Positions 25,606-42,279 of a stretch of DNA of 43,831 nt are shown here, in pieces. How positions within the stretch are numbered: the first letter of the stretch is position 1; each line of letters opens with the position of its first letter. The notes below the pieces were generated by a model. The model worked only from the letters and a program-made list of their open reading frames with translations, was not told the origin of the DNA and did not search any database. Source of the DNA: a virus (Duplodnaviria > Heunggongvirae > Uroviricota > Caudoviricetes); the IMG/VR virus record IMGVR_UViG_2711768019_000013, one strand, 5' to 3'. Made by a program: the position numbers and the translations under genes.

Positions 25606-26194
25606 TTTTCCTCACATATGTCATATAGTAAAGGATTATATATACCGTTGTTTTGGACGCTCAAACAGCGAATCAGATCAAATAAAACGCACATTTGTTA
25701 ACATTTACACAAAGTCTGCGTGGGATATTCTGAAAGAATATCCATAATGTGGAGAGAATCTATTGAAGTGCATGGTGCCGGGTGCCTCCCGGTGAACAAA
25801 ATGTTCGTGATACCTGTCGGCGACAGAAAAGGTTAATGGTATCACCCCACCGCACAGGGGGATTCACCATGCAGGAGTTTTCTTAGCAAACTCACTGCGC
25901 GCCCGGCAACTCCCAACCACATAAAATGCGGAGTTTGTGGCATTTATGCATATAACTCGCAGGAATTATCTTAAAAAACTGATGTCGATCCGGATTAAAA
26001 AGAAGCAGGTCATCATCAGATGACTGGAAAAAAGGAAAACAAAAAATACTCATCATACAGTTTTGATTGCAGGGATGAGCCTGCTATGCACAATATGCAG
26101 AATATAAGCAAGATAAAAATATGCAGGCATATTATTTCGGATCTTGTTATTAACACAACCTTTTTAATAATCATTTGGCATACAATAAACCAGC

Positions 26195-27192: not shown

Positions 27193-27479
27193 AAATGACC
27201 TTTCTTTCTCCAGATTTCTTGTGTGCGAAAAACCCCTTCAGCATGCATCAGGCGCAATTCTTCTTTGGTGTAATCGCTGGTTTTTACCCGCCCGTCGATT
27301 AGATCGTGGCATGAGCTACAGGCTATCGCCGCCTGCATATCATGTGGTTTTGTCGCTGTTCCGCACGTCCCCGCCAGCCTGTAATGCGCCAGCACAGAGG
27401 TTTCGGGATTGTGATTGCAGTAGCCAGGGATTCTGATCTGGCACATCTGGCCTTTAGCCGCTTTACGTAAATTCACCAT
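27189..27479 (-). CDS. YbcO-like (DUF1364) Cys-rich nin-region protein, putative nuclease
   Basis: 96 aa with CQIRIPGYC...CSSCHDLIDGR; position in the nin region upstream of Q. Confidence 0.5.
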   Translation of the reverse strand: MVNLRKAAKGQMCQIRIPGYCNHNPETSVLAHYRLAGTCGTATKPHDMQAAIACSSCHDLIDGRVKTSDYTKEELRLMHAEGVFRTQEIWRKKGHL

Positions 27480-28078
27480 TACGCAAACTCCAGTAGTTGT
27501 GCGGCCACATTTTCAACTTCCTCCTGAGAGGAGAATTTACGGAACAGAATCCAGTTCCACAGCACATTCAGTACAGATTTATAAACCTGCTGAAACTCGA
27601 CTTCGTCCATATTCGCAAAAGCGATGGATTTTGCCCGACGCCCACGGCTACCGTCCGGATAAATATGCTCGGTGTAAAATCCGGCCTGAATGGTTACCCA
27701 CTCGCGGAAAGCCTCAAACGACTTTAGCAACGCCGTATCCCGGGTTCTACGAGTCGCAACGGTGTTAAGGTATTGCTCTGCGGCATCACTCAGGGCTGGC
27801 GTGTGTTCCCGACCAACTGATTCGCACAGGTAATCAACGAAACCAGACAGCAGTTCTCGTTCGCGAGGCGTGATCGCCCCACCGACCGGAGTCCAGTAAT
27901 CGAATCCCAGTTGCAGGAGTTTGAAAAAACGCTTGTGGAATGCGTAGTTACGCACACGCTTAAAGTCTGCGTGTATCCACTCACCTATTTTGATTTGATG
28001 CAGAAAATCGCAACTCTCCGGCGTCGCCGGGAGAAGTAAACCAGAAGAGGTTTGTTTGACCAGTTGTATATGCGCCAT
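27479..28078 (-). CDS. YbcN-like (DUF1367) nin-region protein
   Basis: 199 aa, MAHIQLVKQTSSGLLLPATPESCDFLHQIKIGEWIHADFKRVRNYAFHKRFFKLL...; synteny with the DLP12-type ybcN-ybcO-Q arrangement. Confidence 0.5.
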   Translation of the reverse strand: MAHIQLVKQTSSGLLLPATPESCDFLHQIKIGEWIHADFKRVRNYAFHKRFFKLLQLGFDYWTPVGGAITPRERELLSGFVDYLCESVGREHTPALSDAAEQYLNTVATRRTRDTALLKSFEAFREWVTIQAGFYTEHIYPDGSRGRRAKSIAFANMDEVEFQQVYKSVLNVLWNWILFRKFSSQEEVENVAAQLLEFA

Positions 28079-28358
28079 TTCTCAATCTCTCGATGGCGCA
28101 GCGCAGCAGATGCCAGTTGTTCAGGCTGACGAATAAAGTATAAATAAACTGGCTATGGTGTAAAGCCCCACATAGCATGAACAAACACTACATATCAAAT
28201 AGCTGGTACAAGGATAGAAATACGACACTTATTATTAAAAACGATTAGATAAATTACATTTTAATGTTATGCAAAAGTTCTTTTTTATCATAACATTTCA
28301 ATAAAAGCATTACAGATGCAATCATCCCGTCATCATCAATTATTTAAGGTGGTTAAAC

Positions 28359-28445
28359 ATGGAAAATAACAAGTTCGCACATCTCGCTCCTTTTTTATCC
28401 GTAATCCTTTTCGCTTGTTGTTTTATATGGGCATTATTTTTATAA
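28359..28445 (+). CDS. Small hydrophobic peptide (28 aa), candidate membrane peptide
   Basis: AAGGTGG Shine-Dalgarno 7 nt before ATG 28359; my translation MENNKFAHLAPFLSVILFACCFIWALFL then TAA 28443-28445; single predicted transmembrane helix; AT-rich island. Confidence 0.3.
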   Translation: MENNKFAHLAPFLSVILFACCFIWALFL

Positions 28446-28853
28446 AGTAGCCACATGATAAGTTGCTGGAATCATATTTCCCACTCAAGTCATTAACATT
28501 TGATAAGATATATCTAAAAGGACGCCTTTACATTATTTATGCGTATATAATTTATTTATATACACAGTAAAGGTATCCTGGGAAAATATTTATCGTTAAA
28601 AAATACATCATAAATAATTAAGCTGAAATTTCAGAACACAACTAATACACACAATAAGGTTCAGTAACAGTAATCTATGTGGACTACATCGAGATTTTTT
28701 GATTAAACTTTAATAACTTATTCCTAACACACAGAATGCATAAACTAAAAGTAAAACAAATAGTTATACGAAAAACAACCATATTTATTCTATCTTCTCC
28801 TCTAATCAACATATCAATTATGTGTTTCATAACAGCTTGACATAACCCTCCAA

Positions 28854-28876
28854 AAGATGCATTTTTAATGCATGTT
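28854..28876 (+). promoter_or_regulatory. NsrR-like operator (11-1-11 inverted repeat) upstream of the YeaR-like gene
   Basis: AAGATGCATTT-T-TAATGCATGTT; the left half is identical to the NsrR half-site as I remember the consensus (AAGATGCATTT), the right half matches in 9 of 11 positions; TTGACA at 28837-28842. Confidence 0.5.
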
Positions 28877-28891
28877 TTGGAGGAGGTGGTT

Positions 28892-29230
28892 ATGACACAC
28901 AAGAGAATTCCTAAAGATTGGGTAATCAAACGCTCAACTCCGTTCTTCACAAAAGAGAACGTACCTTCAGCGTTATTAACACATCATAATACAGCAGCAG
29001 GTGTTTTTGGGCAGTTGTGCGTAATGGAAGGCACTGTAACATATTATGGTTTTACTGATGAGAATGCTACTGAACCGGAGATAAAAGTAGTCATTAATGC
29101 TGGCGCTTTTGCAACAAGCCCACCACAATACTGGCACCGTGTTGAACTAAGCGATGATGCTCAGTTTAATATTAACTTTTGGGTCGCTCCAGACTTTTCG
29201 GGCGAAAAAGTCTATAGCACCAAAAAATAG
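28892..29230 (+). CDS. YeaR-like DUF1971 protein (112 aa)
   Basis: GGAGGAGGTGG Shine-Dalgarno before ATG 28892; KRSTPFFTKENVP...CVMEGTVTYYGFTDENATEPE...FNINFWVAPD follows the YeaR pattern as I remember it. Confidence 0.6.
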   Translation: MTHKRIPKDWVIKRSTPFFTKENVPSALLTHHNTAAGVFGQLCVMEGTVTYYGFTDENATEPEIKVVINAGAFATSPPQYWHRVELSDDAQFNINFWVAPDFSGEKVYSTKK

Positions 29231-29257
29231 ATGATCATATTAAAAATGCTTTAACAG

Positions 29258-29296
29258 TCAGACCCGGCAGGGCTATCCCCGACGGGTCTCATTTTT
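29258..29296 (+). terminator. Rho-independent terminator after the YeaR-like gene
   Basis: GC-rich imperfect hairpin gacccggcaggg...ccccgacgggtc followed by TCATTTTTG. Confidence 0.55.
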
Positions 29297-29850
29297 GTAA
29301 ATATATTGGTTCTACATTGACAGGAGACTTCAACCATAAGAAGTAATCTGAATACTTGAGCAATAAATTTACTTAAGATTAATGAGCGCACCTTGCCGGA
29401 CAAAGATAAACCAAGGTAACACCTTTTTTCTAGCCAGTATGTAATCAATCAGAAAGCCGCTCCATAAGAACAACAGCAAGACAATAAATTGCCATTACAG
29501 CCGCAATAGCCAGCGCACATTTGAGAACCAGCACGACAACCCCCTGTATTAGACGCACACCAGTCCTGATAAATATGAGGCTGTCTCGTCAGTGATTCAA
29601 TACAACTATTGGGTATAGTTTCTGTGATTTTATTCTGTAGAAATGGAACACAACAACCAGTCACCACCAGCACTTCCTTAAATGCTCTAAGTCAGAAACA
29701 AGCCAACATTTTAGTCCGCTTTGAGCGATCTGCAGACATTGCTAGCAGCCTTCTGTGTGAATTCTCAGGGAGCAGGTCGGCATAGCATCACGTTGAGGCT
29801 CTTACCCTACTTGTTCACACCAACCCTAACTCCACAGACTGATTCATAAA

Positions 29851-30852
29851 TTAGTAATCTGCGTGTTTCGCACTTTTCAGAAATGCTTTCATATTTTCAT
29901 TAGGTCGCTCAATTTCGAAGTTACTTCCATATAACTCTTGTAATTTTGGCCATAACTTACTTAATAACCCTCTCCTGCGATAAAATGGATGTATCCAAAC
30001 GGTAGATAGGTACGGAGAATTTGCATTTGAATTGTTTATTGTGACCAGCCCAACTAAACATTGTCGATAACCACTATTATCCATTGATTGTATTTCTTCG
30101 ACGAATGGATACGCGATTACATCAGTCCAACCATGATCGGTTGTATCCCATTGCATTCCGTCATGACATTCCTTCGACTGATAGCGGCGTAAAGCTACAC
30201 ACGCGAGCTTTTGCCAATCTGGAGAATTAATTGTGATCTCTTCATCGTATGACGCGCCTATTGGAGCGGGTATTGGTCTGATTAATCCAGCATGGCATTC
30301 ATCATAGAACTTCATGTTTCCCTCAGAAACGTTGTGTACGTTGGGTTGCTCCATGTGTGCGCCATTCAAAAATAGCTCTGATAGTAGTGTATCTACACTG
30401 TAATCTTTATTGATTATTGTCGGCTTAGAGTTTTTCTTATTAAGGCCGCGAGTAACGATTTTTTGATCAATGTTAACAACATGGAATAATCCGTCGGGGA
30501 GGCTAGCGAACCACGATGGGGCATCGGACCAGAATAGCATGCCTTTTGTACTTCTTAAGAGTTTAATTAAGTTAATACAAGCTTCTTCACTAGTCTTGCC
30601 GTTGATGCGAAGTATGTTAGGACTAAAGTAATATTCATCCATATCAGGGAATGCAGCTTCGCAAAACTCCTGTACATAATTTAGCACCTGGATTCTACAG
30701 AGATCATCATAGCTGGTAATAACTAAGGGGGTATCTTCATTACTATTATGATTATCAATAATGCAATCTATAGCGAGACTTACTGCTTTGCGTATCACTT
30801 CAGTTGAATCTAACGACTCTAAAAATTTTGTCTTTCGTGTGCGAATATCCAT
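29851..30852 (-). CDS. Hypothetical protein (333 aa), second gene of an AT-rich two-gene operon; C-terminal region weakly GNAT acetyltransferase-like
   Basis: Start ATG 30852 lies 15 nt after the ORF A stop; C-terminal ...CLVGLVTINNSNANSPYLSTVWIHPFYRRRGLLSKLWPKL... resembles GNAT motif A (compare RimI FQRRGLG); N-terminal 200 aa unrecognised; low GC. Confidence 0.55.
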   Translation of the reverse strand: MDIRTRKTKFLESLDSTEVIRKAVSLAIDCIIDNHNSNEDTPLVITSYDDLCRIQVLNYVQEFCEAAFPDMDEYYFSPNILRINGKTSEEACINLIKLLRSTKGMLFWSDAPSWFASLPDGLFHVVNIDQKIVTRGLNKKNSKPTIINKDYSVDTLLSELFLNGAHMEQPNVHNVSEGNMKFYDECHAGLIRPIPAPIGASYDEEITINSPDWQKLACVALRRYQSKECHDGMQWDTTDHGWTDVIAYPFVEEIQSMDNSGYRQCLVGLVTINNSNANSPYLSTVWIHPFYRRRGLLSKLWPKLQELYGSNFEIERPNENMKAFLKSAKHADY

Positions 30853-30867
30853 GTATGACCTGCGCTA

Positions 30868-31890
30868 TTAAAATTCATGAATGAACGGTTTGTCATCTGG
30901 TTGCAAAATGGTGGTTTTATTCGTTGCTACATTTAAACTGTTGTAGAGCATAATTGCCAGGTTCGATGCATTTTCAATCAGCGTTTCAAGATCCTGGTCT
31001 GTAATCACTACGAGGTTCCCTTCTTTATCCTTTCCACCACGATGCACTAAGTGATTTCGATTGAGGGTTGCCAATTCAATAGCTTCTATCGGACAGTCTT
31101 TTTGTACTTTTATATCGAATGTAGCTTCATAGCGGTCGATTACCTTTTTAGTGCTATGCCAGCTTGCACTGATCAAGTGTTCCTTGATTGACCTGATTAG
31201 CTCTCCCCTAATTTTCTCGATGGGTTCACCCTTGAAAGGCAACGCAGCAATATCTTTGCTTACTTTAAATTCAGTCTTACCTTTTTCTATACAATTGGCT
31301 ATGTAGACATCATCTTTCTCTATAGAATTAATGAATAGCTCAACATAAAGCGTTTCCAAAGCTGTAATAACATTCGTGTAGAGCAAACTAAGCAAGTGGT
31401 TTTTTTGCTGTTGTTCAGTTTTATCTTTTGCAAGTTTTTTTATTTTATCGATATTATCAATGAATTTTAAATACGGATTACCGGAAGACGTTACAGCGTC
31501 GTAGATATCATCATCGTACCAATCATCTATATTATTTGAGTTTCCAGACCAGTCAAAACATTGTGTTTGTAATTCATCTACTAATTCCTCAATATACTCA
31601 GATTTAACATATTGACCGAAGATGGATTGTAGTTCTTCGCTCGCATCATACGGCCCGCCATATATGTAAGCATAGCCACCTTCTCTACTTTCATACGGAC
31701 AAGCATTTGCCGGATCTTCAAAGTTTTCAAAGAACCAGTTTTTCATTACTTCGAGTTGATCTTTTTTGCTTATGTATTTTAAAGATTTTAGTGGAACTTT
31801 CTTTCCATTAACCTCGAAAACAATTTTCACGATGTAACGCTCCCTTGTATCAATTGCGCAACTATTATACCACAGCGAAATACAGGGCAT
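30868..31890 (-). CDS. Hypothetical protein (340 aa), first gene of the AT-rich two-gene operon; C-terminal R-x4-H (HEPN-like) motif
   Basis: Strong AAGGAGG Shine-Dalgarno 6 nt before ATG 31890 (MPCISLWYNSC...); C-terminal ...ATLNRNHLVHRGG... fits the Rx4-6H pattern; no family recognised by eye; low GC. Confidence 0.55.
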   Translation of the reverse strand: MPCISLWYNSCAIDTRERYIVKIVFEVNGKKVPLKSLKYISKKDQLEVMKNWFFENFEDPANACPYESREGGYAYIYGGPYDASEELQSIFGQYVKSEYIEELVDELQTQCFDWSGNSNNIDDWYDDDIYDAVTSSGNPYLKFIDNIDKIKKLAKDKTEQQQKNHLLSLLYTNVITALETLYVELFINSIEKDDVYIANCIEKGKTEFKVSKDIAALPFKGEPIEKIRGELIRSIKEHLISASWHSTKKVIDRYEATFDIKVQKDCPIEAIELATLNRNHLVHRGGKDKEGNLVVITDQDLETLIENASNLAIMLYNSLNVATNKTTILQPDDKPFIHEF

Positions 31891-31928
31891 AACCTGCCTC
31901 CTTAAACTAACATACCATGAGCCAGCAA

Positions 31929-31954
31929 TGTCCGCTATTGGCACAAAGCGGACA
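31929..31954. promoter_or_regulatory. Perfect 8-10-8 inverted repeat (TGTCCGCT-N10-AGCGGACA) upstream of ORF A; candidate operator
   Basis: Plus-strand tgtccgct attggcacaa agcggaca at 31929-31954, about 40 nt upstream of the ORF A start on the minus strand; not followed by a U-run, so not a terminator. Confidence 0.4.
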
Positions 31955-32028
31955 ACCACGCTAGCTCTCCCCTGTGCCAGAAAAATGTCAATTTACATAT
32001 GAACTAATGCTCTTTGATCTAGTAACGT

Positions 32029-42090: not shown

Positions 42091-42279
42091 ATGTATAAAA
42101 TTACCGCCACTATTGAAAAGGAAGGTGGCACTCCTACTAACTGGACAAGATATTCAAAATCTAAACTAACGAAATCAGAATGCGAAAAAATGCTCTCAGG
42201 TAAAAAAGAAGCAGGCGTTTCCAGAGAGCAGAAAGTAAAACTGATAAATTTTAATTGCGAGAAACTTCAGTCCTCGTGA
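42091..42279 (+). CDS. YdaC-like small protein (62 aa from MYKITATIEKEGG)
   Basis: Track ORF 42019-42279; the internal ATG 42091 overlaps the ralR reading-frame end; an alternative ATG at 42079 (MEVFMYKIT) is possible. Confidence 0.5.
   Translation: MYKITATIEKEGGTPTNWTRYSKSKLTKSECEKMLSGKKEAGVSREQKVKLINFNCEKLQSS

What the first reader, a model, noticed from the sequence alone, without database searches (positions are those of the whole stretch)
28359..28445. Unannotated 28-codon hydrophobic peptide with a strong ribosome-binding site in the AT-rich island
ATG at 28359 is preceded by AAGGTGG at ideal spacing and encodes MENNKFAHLAPFLSVILFACCFIWALFL, a single-transmembrane-helix peptide typical of small membrane proteins or type I toxins. 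It is below the ORF-track length cut-off and lies in a long AT-rich stretch (28080-28860) with no other convincing genes.
Basis: seen in the sequence. Interest (0 to 1): 0.4.

Follow-up and report, generated by a model that had tools for sequence, protein, structure and literature searches.

The report
Unannotated conserved 28-residue prophage membrane peptide
The 28-codon reading frame is a real small gene kept by natural selection, encoding a single-helix membrane peptide carried by Rac-like prophages in about a fifth of complete E. coli genomes; annotation misses it probably because it is too short, and nothing found here shows it is a toxin.

Summary
The ATG is at 28359, AAGGTGG lies 6 nt upstream, and the product is a 28-aa peptide with a polar head and a 19-residue hydrophobic tail.

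The ORF lies in a Rac-like lambdoid prophage, between a DUF1367 early gene and a variable cargo hotspot. Elsewhere the hotspot holds hok/sok, relBE, the anti-phage S8 peptidase IteS, or NACHT genes.

The sequence occurs in 1175 of 5426 complete E. coli genomes and is never annotated. It is absent from a 15-billion-protein collection.

About 210 fetched cassettes fall into three diverged lineages. All keep exactly 28 codons; one is interrupted by IS1. dN/dS is 0.06-0.21. Only this frame is stop-free and rich in synonymous changes (permutation p ≤ 0.0006 for two of three lineage pairs).

The unit of homology is a ~222-bp cassette: a 46-bp near-invariant promoter-like block, a poorly conserved leader, the SD and the ORF. 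Sequence on both sides is unrelated between lineages.

No family matched in Pfam, NCBIfam, PHROGs, PADLOC, PDB or Rfam.

Best reading: a self-contained, moron-type small inner-membrane protein gene. A type I toxin role is possible but unsupported. I found no antitoxin RNA, no conserved SD-sequestering fold and no toxin-family match.

A second small hydrophobic ORF (29445-29534, minus strand) flanks the other side of the cargo.

The parts
28228..28449 (+). The whole conserved cassette: promoter-like block, leader, SD and 28-codon ORF. It is 27% GC.
   Evidence: This is the only stretch shared by lineages A (window), B and C. Flanks on both sides are at 28-49% identity, i.e. unrelated. A lineage C query matches E. 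coli only over this cassette, at 78% identity.
28228..28273 (+). Near-invariant 46-bp block, proposed to be the promoter/operator of the small gene.
   Evidence: Identity between lineages is 89-96% with no gaps, higher than in the ORF itself. It contains the only plus-strand sigma-70-like candidate that holds its position in all five allele groups: TTATTA (28232-28237), 17 nt, TACATT/TAAATT (28255-28260). An alternative reading is TTAGAT (28245-28250), 17 nt, TGtTATGCA (28265-28273), read from the sequence. Promoter activity is inferred, not shown.
28264..28296 (+). Inverted repeat ATGTTATG (28264-28271) / CATAACAT (28289-28296) with a 17-nt loop. It is either a stem-loop at the 5' end of the mRNA or a DNA operator.
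   Evidence: the repeat finder pair I2. RNAalifold keeps all 8 pairs in 11 of 11 sequences. Two positions change only G-C to G-U or U-A to U-G on the plus strand, which would be C-A mismatches on the minus strand.
28274..28345 (+). Poorly conserved leader (5' UTR).
   Evidence: Identity between lineages is 53-61%, with indels. No conserved structure covers the SD.
28346..28352 (+). Shine-Dalgarno sequence AAGGTGG, 6 nt before the ATG.
   Evidence: Lineage B has AAGGTGA and lineage C has AAGGTAG. The SD is weakened to AAAGTGAG or AAAGCGAG in the B2 sub-lineage.
28359..28445 (+). 28-codon ORF plus stop codon: MENNKFAHLAPFLSVILFACCFIWALFL. It has a polar head (residues 1-9) and a hydrophobic helix that runs to the C-terminus (residues 10-28, mean Kyte-Doolittle hydropathy +2.5).
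   Evidence: Invariant residues in the ten-allele alignment are M1 E2 N3 N4 A7 H8 P11 F12 L13 S14 I16 L17 F18 C21 W24 A25 F27 L28. Later loci add rare exceptions: E2G, A7V, F12S, C21F.
27479..28078 (-). Left neighbour (context only): a DUF1367 early gene. A promoter-like site for it, TTTACA-16-TATACT, lies at 28164-28137.
   Evidence: The identical DUF1367 protein WP_000940319.1 flanks both A and B alleles. The small gene therefore diverged together with the cargo side, not with this gene.

Best explanation
This is a genuine protein-coding gene carried as a self-contained ~222-bp cassette (28228-28449) in Rac-like lambdoid prophages of Escherichia and Shigella.

Shown: the reading frame, its length and its amino-acid sequence are under purifying selection in three lineages that share nothing outside the cassette.

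Inferred:
- It is transcribed rightward from its own sigma-70-type promoter in the invariant 46-bp block. That direction is opposite to the prophage's early and late genes, so it can be expressed in the lysogen like a moron.
- It is translated from a strong, unsequestered SD.
- The 28-aa product inserts in the inner membrane as one helix, with an 8-9-residue polar N-terminus.
- There it most likely acts as a small membrane-protein modulator or exclusion factor that benefits the lysogen.
- During induction, convergent early transcription would run antisense through it.

It is not a detectable member of any described toxin or small-protein family. It escaped annotation probably because 87 nt (with the stop codon) is below the gene callers' length cut-off.
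For: ORF and SD are as described.

Prevalence and annotation:
- The ORF region is present in 1175 of 5426 complete E. coli genomes; none of the 60 listed records has an annotation there.
- Among GTDB species representatives it was found only in Shigella flexneri and E. ruysiae.
- It is abundant in IMG/VR prophage contigs.
- The exact peptides are absent from the 15-billion-protein collection. The 29-aa, 90-nt ORF on the other side of the cargo is present there, consistent with a 90-nt calling threshold.

Selection:
- The ORF always has 28 codons, with 17 nucleotide alleles in the first 97 loci and no nonsense or frameshift.
- dN/dS is 0.06-0.21. Fisher tests of synonymous against non-synonymous changes give p=6e-6 (A-C), 1.6e-5 (B-C) and 0.004 (A-B).
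- All other five frames contain stops, and their changes are mostly non-synonymous.

Conservation profile: block 89-96%, leader 53-61%, SD plus ORF 73-85% with no gaps, flanks 28-49%.

Promoter: the candidate holds its position in all lineages.

Independence from neighbours:
- The left neighbour may be DUF1367, a DUF968-type module, or unrelated DNA.
- The right neighbour may be the AT-rich island with DUF1971, hok/sok, hokD-relBE, IteS, or NACHT.

Retention in decayed prophages:
- The LD39-1 Rac remnant keeps it.
- Lineage C sits in a remnant between a trkG-like gene and chromosomal yebY, in a chromosome about 87% identical to E. coli.

Hydropathy: residues 10-28 average +2.5.
Against: There is no direct evidence of transcription or translation.

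The promoter is a weak consensus match in AT-rich DNA. Such matches are as frequent as in shuffled sequence (4 found, 5.1 expected).

The SD is degraded to AAAGTGAG or AAAGCGAG in the commonest B2 sub-lineage.

The family is narrow (Escherichia/Shigella only), and only three deep lineages carry the selection signal. Codon-relaxed scans of the viral and metagenome collections found no further lineage.

The last five codons are almost invariant even at synonymous sites. This points to an extra nucleotide-level constraint that this model does not explain.

Function in the membrane is pure inference.
Confidence: 0.6

Rival explanations
1. Type I toxin. The peptide depolarises the inner membrane when made. 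Its synthesis is held down by an antisense RNA. That RNA would be either a cis-antisense started from a -10-like element in the invariant 3' end of the ORF, or read-through of the convergent cargo or early transcripts.
For: The size and architecture (a short polar head and a helix running to the C-terminus) resemble ShoB and Ibs, a resemblance recalled from memory.

The ORF sits in a hotspot that elsewhere carries hok/sok and relBE.

Every lineage has a minus-strand promoter-like match whose -10 (AATAAT, TATAAA or TAAAAA) falls in the near-invariant last codons. That could explain why synonymous sites are frozen there.

A terminator for convergent transcription abuts the stop codon in lineage B. 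A hairpin with a T-run abuts it in lineage C; that one was read by eye and not scanned.

The SD is weakened in the B2 alleles.
Against: No type I toxin family matched in Pfam or NCBIfam, and no antitoxin RNA family matched in Rfam.

The -35 halves of the antisense candidates lie in non-homologous DNA, and scores are at chance level for AT-rich sequence.

A second antisense candidate near the translation start is absent from lineage A.

No trans-complementary sequence of 14 nt or more exists in the window.

The SD is unpaired in the consensus fold, and the mRNA is not unusually structured (z = -1.3). Known type I toxin mRNAs are typically held translationally inert.
Confidence: 0.2
2. The ORF is not translated. 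The conservation reflects a DNA- or RNA-level element: a recombination anchor at the edge of the cargo hotspot, a promoter or terminator, or a small RNA. The open frame is incidental.
For: Homology ends 1-4 nt after the stop codon, exactly at the cargo junction.

The last ~20 nt are almost invariant even at synonymous sites.

Mosaic alleles suggest recombination inside the ORF. Lineage C has a B-like N-terminal half and an A-like C-terminal half, and MENNKFAHYVP... alleles also exist.

The 46-bp block is more conserved than the ORF.
Against: Substitutions concentrate at third codon positions: 6, 9 and 17 variable sites at positions 1, 2 and 3.

Synonymous changes are far in excess of expectation in this frame only.

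There are no indels in 87 nt, while the adjacent leader has several.

There is no stop in about 210 cassettes.

Only one small hairpin is conserved, it lies upstream of the ORF, and there is no Rfam match.
Confidence: 0.08
3. The ORF is the leftover signal peptide of a lipoprotein or secreted-protein gene that cargo insertion cut off.
For: There are sub-threshold matches to the signal-peptide parts of Lp6.6 lipoprotein (E=0.04) and an Rz-like spanin (E=0.24). Lineage A alleles have lipobox-like LFAC or FAGC.
Against: The lipobox is absent in lineage B (FVFC, FVLC).

The stop codon and the last five codons are shared by three lineages with unrelated downstream DNA. The 28-codon length is therefore ancestral, not a recent truncation.

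A dead remnant would not show dN/dS of 0.06-0.2.
Confidence: 0.03

Closest known systems
ShoB and Ibs, short hydrophobic type I toxins of E. coli
   Same: Length of 19-28 aa, a polar N-terminal head, and a single hydrophobic helix that runs to the very C-terminus. They are AT-rich, stand-alone genes missed by automatic annotation. (This resemblance is recalled from memory.)
   Different: No sequence similarity and no NCBIfam or Pfam hit. No OhsC- or Sib-like antisense RNA, and no conserved inhibitory 5' UTR fold. It is single-copy and prophage-borne.
hok/sok (Hok/Gef family), the neighbour in lineage B loci
   Same: It is found in the same prophage hotspot, and both are small membrane peptides.
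   Different: It is a separate, convergent transcription unit. The hok terminator lies between the two genes. K-12 hokD lacks the small ORF. The cassette also occurs without hok: in the window itself, and next to IteS and NACHT cargo. No Hok domain is present.
Phage morons such as lambda bor and lom or HK97 gp15 (prophage-expressed membrane proteins)
   Same: A self-contained insert with its own promoter-like element. It is oriented against lytic transcription, has a GC content far below its neighbours, and is retained in decayed prophages.
   Different: It is much smaller (28 aa). No clear plus-strand terminator was found in the window allele. No exclusion or virulence phenotype is known, and it is not homologous to any of these.
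Small inner-membrane regulatory or accessory peptides of E. coli (KdpF, MgtS, AcrZ, CydX)
   Same: A single helix of 29-49 aa, strongly conserved despite tiny size, acting by binding larger membrane proteins. This is the mode of action proposed here.
   Different: Those are chromosomal and usually sit in or next to the operon of their partner. This one is phage-borne with no fixed neighbour, and no partner is known.
YlcH of prophage DLP12 (33 aa, just upstream of ybcN in the nin region)
   Same: A small ORF at a comparable map position in a lambdoid prophage.
   Different: The sequence is unrelated and not hydrophobic ([33 protein letters not shown]), and it is on the same strand as the nin genes.

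Membership tests
Type I toxin-antitoxin system (generic) | Small (<60 aa) hydrophobic, membrane-targeting toxin ORF | tested here: met
   28 aa; residues 10-28 have mean hydropathy +2.5.
Type I toxin-antitoxin system (generic) | An antisense or partly complementary small RNA antitoxin encoded at the locus | tested here: inconclusive
   No Rfam hit. No complementary repeat in the window. Only chance-level antisense promoter matches, with -35 parts in non-homologous DNA. RNA data are needed.
Type I toxin-antitoxin system (generic) | Toxin mRNA kept translationally inert by a conserved 5' UTR structure | tested here: not met
   The consensus fold leaves the SD and ATG essentially open. The only conserved helix lies 60-95 nt upstream. 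Single-sequence fold z = -1.3.
Type I toxin-antitoxin system (generic) | Growth arrest or membrane damage on expression, neutralised by the RNA | not testable with these tools
   This requires an experiment.
Known toxin families (Hok/Gef, Ldr, Ibs, ShoB, TisB, DinQ, ZorO and others, as held in Pfam and NCBIfam) | Significant match to the family profile | tested here: not met
   No hit with an E-value below 0.04, and none to any toxin family. PADLOC gave none.
Bacterial lipoprotein or Rz1-type spanin signal peptide | Conserved lipobox L-[ASTVI]-[GAS]-C followed by a mature domain | tested here: not met
   A lipobox-like motif occurs only in lineage A. It is absent in B, and only 7-8 residues follow the Cys.
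Phage moron | An independent transcription unit (own promoter, own terminator) inserted between phage genes, with deviating base composition | tested here: inconclusive
   Composition is 27% GC against about 50%. The cassette is independent of its neighbours. A promoter candidate is conserved. No convincing plus-strand terminator was found in the window allele, and promoter activity is untested.
Protein-coding gene (as opposed to a chance ORF) | Frame, length and amino-acid sequence conserved, with an excess of synonymous change | tested here: met

The most novel reading that the evidence does not exclude
The cassette is a new type I-like toxin, or a membrane effector, whose expression is gated by convergent transcription. 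The convergent transcript would come from an antisense start in its frozen 3' end, or from the cargo or early operon. A second inward-facing small hydrophobic ORF lies on the far side (29445-29534, minus strand). Together the two would form a conserved frame around a prophage defence/TA hotspot and take part in regulating or executing what the cargo does.
Probability: 0.12. Interest if true: 0.65.

Novelty: new member of a known kind. Interest (0 to 1): 0.45.

Why it matters
A gene present in roughly one in five complete E. coli genomes is invisible in the RefSeq records inspected here and in a 15-billion-protein collection. The likely reason is that it is one codon shorter than the usual gene-calling cut-off.

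It marks the left edge of a prophage hotspot that swaps toxin-antitoxin and anti-phage systems (hok/sok, relBE, IteS, NACHT). This makes it a handy landmark for finding such cargo.

It is also a candidate small membrane effector or regulator expressed from the prophage. If it proves toxic or protective, it adds a new family to the small-protein and type I toxin repertoire. If not, it is still a clean, testable example of a selected 28-residue protein.

Tried and rejected
Database and profile searches:
- Profile searches of three alleles against Pfam, NCBIfam, PHROGs and PADLOC, and a PDB sequence search. Only sub-threshold signal-peptide-like noise came back.
The representative search and structure prediction need at least 30 aa and were not run.
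- Rfam at permissive and at gathering thresholds found nothing at the locus.

Literature:
- A full-text search for the peptide strings gave 0 papers.
- The supplements of the O157:H7 Sakai small-gene study do not contain it, though one file was cut when stored.
- The Sberro 2019 paper is not held.

K-12: the Qin and DLP12 regions lack the cassette, and ylcH is unrelated.

Search for more distant lineages:
- Codon-relaxed patterns that exclude the known alleles found 0 hits in the viral and metagenome collections.
- A lineage C-specific pattern found three more lineage C copies.

Antitoxin and operon ideas:
- Direct and inverted repeat searches and an 11-mer complementarity search found only chance matches.
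- Operon with the downstream DUF1971 gene: rejected. That gene has its own TTGACA hexamer and operator-like palindrome, and it is absent from lineages B and C.
- Part of the hok locus: rejected.
- Conserved minus-strand ORF overlapping it: rejected, because the frames carry stops.

Full report
**Observation.** An ATG at 28359 opens a 28-codon frame that ends at TAA 28443-28445. AAGGTGG lies at 28346-28352, 6 nt upstream. The product is MENNKFAHLAPFLSVILFACCFIWALFL. Residues 1-9 are polar and residues 10-28 are strongly hydrophobic, with a mean Kyte-Doolittle value of +2.5. The surrounding kilobase is 30-36% GC, against about 50% in the neighbouring genes.

**Where it is.** The window is a Rac-type lambdoid prophage. 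It carries recE, an integrase, a RalA sRNA match, trkG, and lysis and tail genes.
- The ORF lies on the plus strand, opposite to the early-right and late genes.
- To its left is a DUF1367-DUF1364-DUF1133 (Q-like) block.
- To its right is an AT-rich island followed by a DUF1971 gene.
- The 801-bp stretch 28080-28880 matches 850 complete E. coli genomes. No annotated feature lies under it in any of the 30 best or 60 evenly spread listed records.

**Relatives.**
- A 121-nt query around the ORF finds 1175 of 5426 E. coli genomes.
- Among one-per-species genomes, only Shigella flexneri and E. ruysiae carry it.
- It is common in IMG/VR prophage contigs.
- The alleles fall into three lineages:
  - A is the window type.
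  - B is about 80-84% identical in the ORF (MENNKSAHYAPFLSVILFVFCCVWALFL and variants).
  - C reads M(E/G)NNKSAHYAPFLSIILFVCCF(I/V)WALFL. It was found in one IMG/VR contig and three metagenome contigs.
- The right-hand neighbour varies: hok/sok, hokD-relBE-ydfV-flxA, the S8 anti-phage peptidase IteS, NACHT NTPases, or DUF1971.
- The left-hand neighbour is DUF1367 in most loci, a different module (a hypothetical protein plus DUF968) in others, and unrelated DNA in lineage C.
- Lineage C sits in a decayed remnant. A trkG-like gene lies 1.4 kb to its left and chromosomal yebY about 250 nt to its right. That chromosome is only about 87% identical to E. coli.
- K-12 lacks the cassette. In the Qin prophage, rem occupies the place next to the hokD terminator.

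**Is it a gene?** Every cassette that is not cut by a contig end has exactly 28 codons. That covers 96 loci in the first set, 113 in the second and 3 in the metagenome set, with some contigs fetched twice. The only disruption is an IS1 insertion.
- Variable sites fall 6, 9 and 17 at codon positions 1, 2 and 3.
- Nei-Gojobori dN/dS is 0.18 (A-B), 0.06 (A-C) and 0.06 (B-C).
- Of the six frames, only this one is free of stops and has more synonymous than non-synonymous codon differences. Permuting the observed substitutions gives p=0.025, 0.0006 and <5e-5.
- The replacements that do occur are hydrophobic-for-hydrophobic or involve Cys.
- I conclude that the amino-acid sequence is under purifying selection. 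The caveat is that only three deep lineages carry this signal.

**Anatomy of the conserved unit.** Pairwise identity between lineages runs as follows:

| Segment | Identity | Gaps |
|---|---|---|
| Upstream flank, 28171-28227 | 28-49% | yes |
| Block, 28228-28273 | 89-96% | none |
| Leader, 28274-28343 | 53-61% | yes |
| SD to ATG | 73-80% | none |
| ORF | 80-85% | none |
| After the stop | 29-42% | yes |

- The unit of inheritance is therefore a ~222-bp cassette made of two conserved islands.
- The first island holds the only plus-strand sigma-70-like candidate that keeps its position in all five allele groups. It is TTATTA-17-TA(A/C)ATT, with its -10 at 28255-28260.
- A TTAGAT-17-TGtTATGCA arrangement is an alternative reading.
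- An 8-bp inverted repeat (28264-28271 / 28289-28296) is kept in all sequences. It varies only by G-U wobbles on the plus strand. It could be a stem-loop at the 5' end of the mRNA or an operator.
- These promoter and operator assignments are inferences. In this AT-rich DNA, consensus matches are no more frequent than in shuffled sequence.

**Why it was never annotated.** The exact peptides of all lineages are absent from the 15-billion-protein collection. A 29-aa, 90-nt ORF on the other side of the cargo is present there. This fits the 90-nt minimum gene length of common gene callers, which I recall from memory. The ORF is 87 nt with its stop codon.

**What it is not.**
- No family matches it in Pfam, NCBIfam, PHROGs, PADLOC or the PDB.
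- The only weak hits are to signal-peptide segments, and the lipobox-like motif of lineage A is not conserved.
- There is no Rfam family at the locus.
- It is not part of hok. The hok terminator separates the two genes, and the cassette occurs without hok.
- DLP12 ylcH is unrelated.

**Toxin or not.** Several features favour a type I toxin:
- the size and the helix running to the C-terminus;
- the TA and defence neighbourhood;
- a weakened SD in the B2 sub-lineage;
- a near-invariant 3' end that reads TTATAAAAATAAT on the minus strand, where every lineage has an antisense promoter-like match.

Several features count against it:
- the -35 parts of those matches lie in non-homologous DNA, and scores are at chance level;
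- a second antisense candidate near the start codon is missing in lineage A;
- nothing elsewhere in the window is complementary to the mRNA;
- the SD is not sequestered in any conserved structure, and folding is unremarkable at z = -1.3.

I therefore rank a moron-type small inner-membrane protein first (0.6) and a bona fide type I toxin second (0.2). Its retention in decayed prophages alongside the domesticated trkG fits a function useful to the lysogen.

**Comparison and novelty.** It works like the known small single-helix membrane peptides, either regulators such as KdpF, MgtS and AcrZ or toxins such as ShoB and Ibs. It is packaged like a phage moron. It is not a detectable member of any described family. 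I rate it a new member of a known kind, of moderate interest. It is widespread, cleanly selected and experimentally tractable, and it marks a prophage hotspot for TA and anti-phage cargo.

**Side observations.**
- The far side of the cargo carries a second conserved small hydrophobic ORF (29445-29534, minus strand), described under the items noticed in passing.
- The DUF1971 gene is preceded by a palindrome that looks like an NsrR operator, a consensus I recall from memory.

Noticed in passing
window 29445-29534 (-), within conserved 'region X' 29440-29770: A second small hydrophobic ORF lies on the far side of the variable cargo. It has a GTG start and AGGGGG (AGGAGG in most relatives) 5-6 nt upstream. 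The 29-aa product is (M)LVLKCALAIAAVMAIYCLAVVLMERLSD. Region X is 81-100% identical in 107 fetched loci. Substitutions are mostly synonymous: 8 synonymous against 3 conservative replacements between the window and L208. It is frameshifted in 5 loci. It is unannotated in the RefSeq records examined, but other sources call it 'putative membrane protein' in E. coli, S. flexneri and E. albertii. It and the 28-aa ORF both point inward at the cargo.
   Followed up: partly
window 28839-28891: A TTGACA hexamer (28839-28844) is followed by a 17-bp inverted repeat (28847-28863 / 28867-28883, 94% complementary). Its core, AAGATGCATTTTTAATGCATGTT, sits just before the SD of the DUF1971 (YeaR-like) gene at 28892-29230. 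It resembles the NsrR operator, which I recall from memory, as I do that K-12 yeaR is NsrR-regulated. This suggests a nitric-oxide-responsive prophage cargo gene.
   Followed up: no
window 28446-29850 and the equivalent position in L002-L015: The position right after the small ORF's stop codon is a cargo hotspot. Different prophages carry there hok/sok, hokD-relBE-ydfV, IteS (S8 anti-phage peptidase) with an FtsH-like ATPase, NACHT NTPases, AAA ATPase plus DUF262, or the AT-rich island with DUF1971. In lineage B loci the terminator of the convergent cargo gene lies 25-45 nt from the stop.
   Followed up: partly
window 29851-30852 (-) and 30868-31959 (-): Two proteins annotated as hypothetical lie next to region X. 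They have weak, sub-threshold hits to GNAT acetyltransferase (E=9e-4) and to the HEPN/RES N-terminal domain (E=2e-4). They may be a further defence or TA-like cargo pair.
   Followed up: no
window 42097-42275 (-) and 25716-25902 (-): Rfam matches above the gathering score: RalA, the antitoxin sRNA of the RalR type I system (225 bits), and the sRNA STnc100 (87 bits) downstream of the Q-like gene.
   Followed up: no
L223 7218-8693 and 10090-10320; L226 (reverse strand) 700-1182: The lineage C cassette survives intact in a heavily decayed prophage remnant, between a trkG-like potassium transporter gene and the chromosomal yebY-copD-yobA-holE region. The host chromosome is about 87% identical to E. 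coli, possibly E. albertii. The lysis and nin genes that separate trkG from the cassette in the window are gone.
   Followed up: partly
L013 1516-1580: In E. coli isolate F1053 an IS1A element is inserted inside the small ORF after codon 16. This is the only disrupted copy seen.
   Followed up: yes
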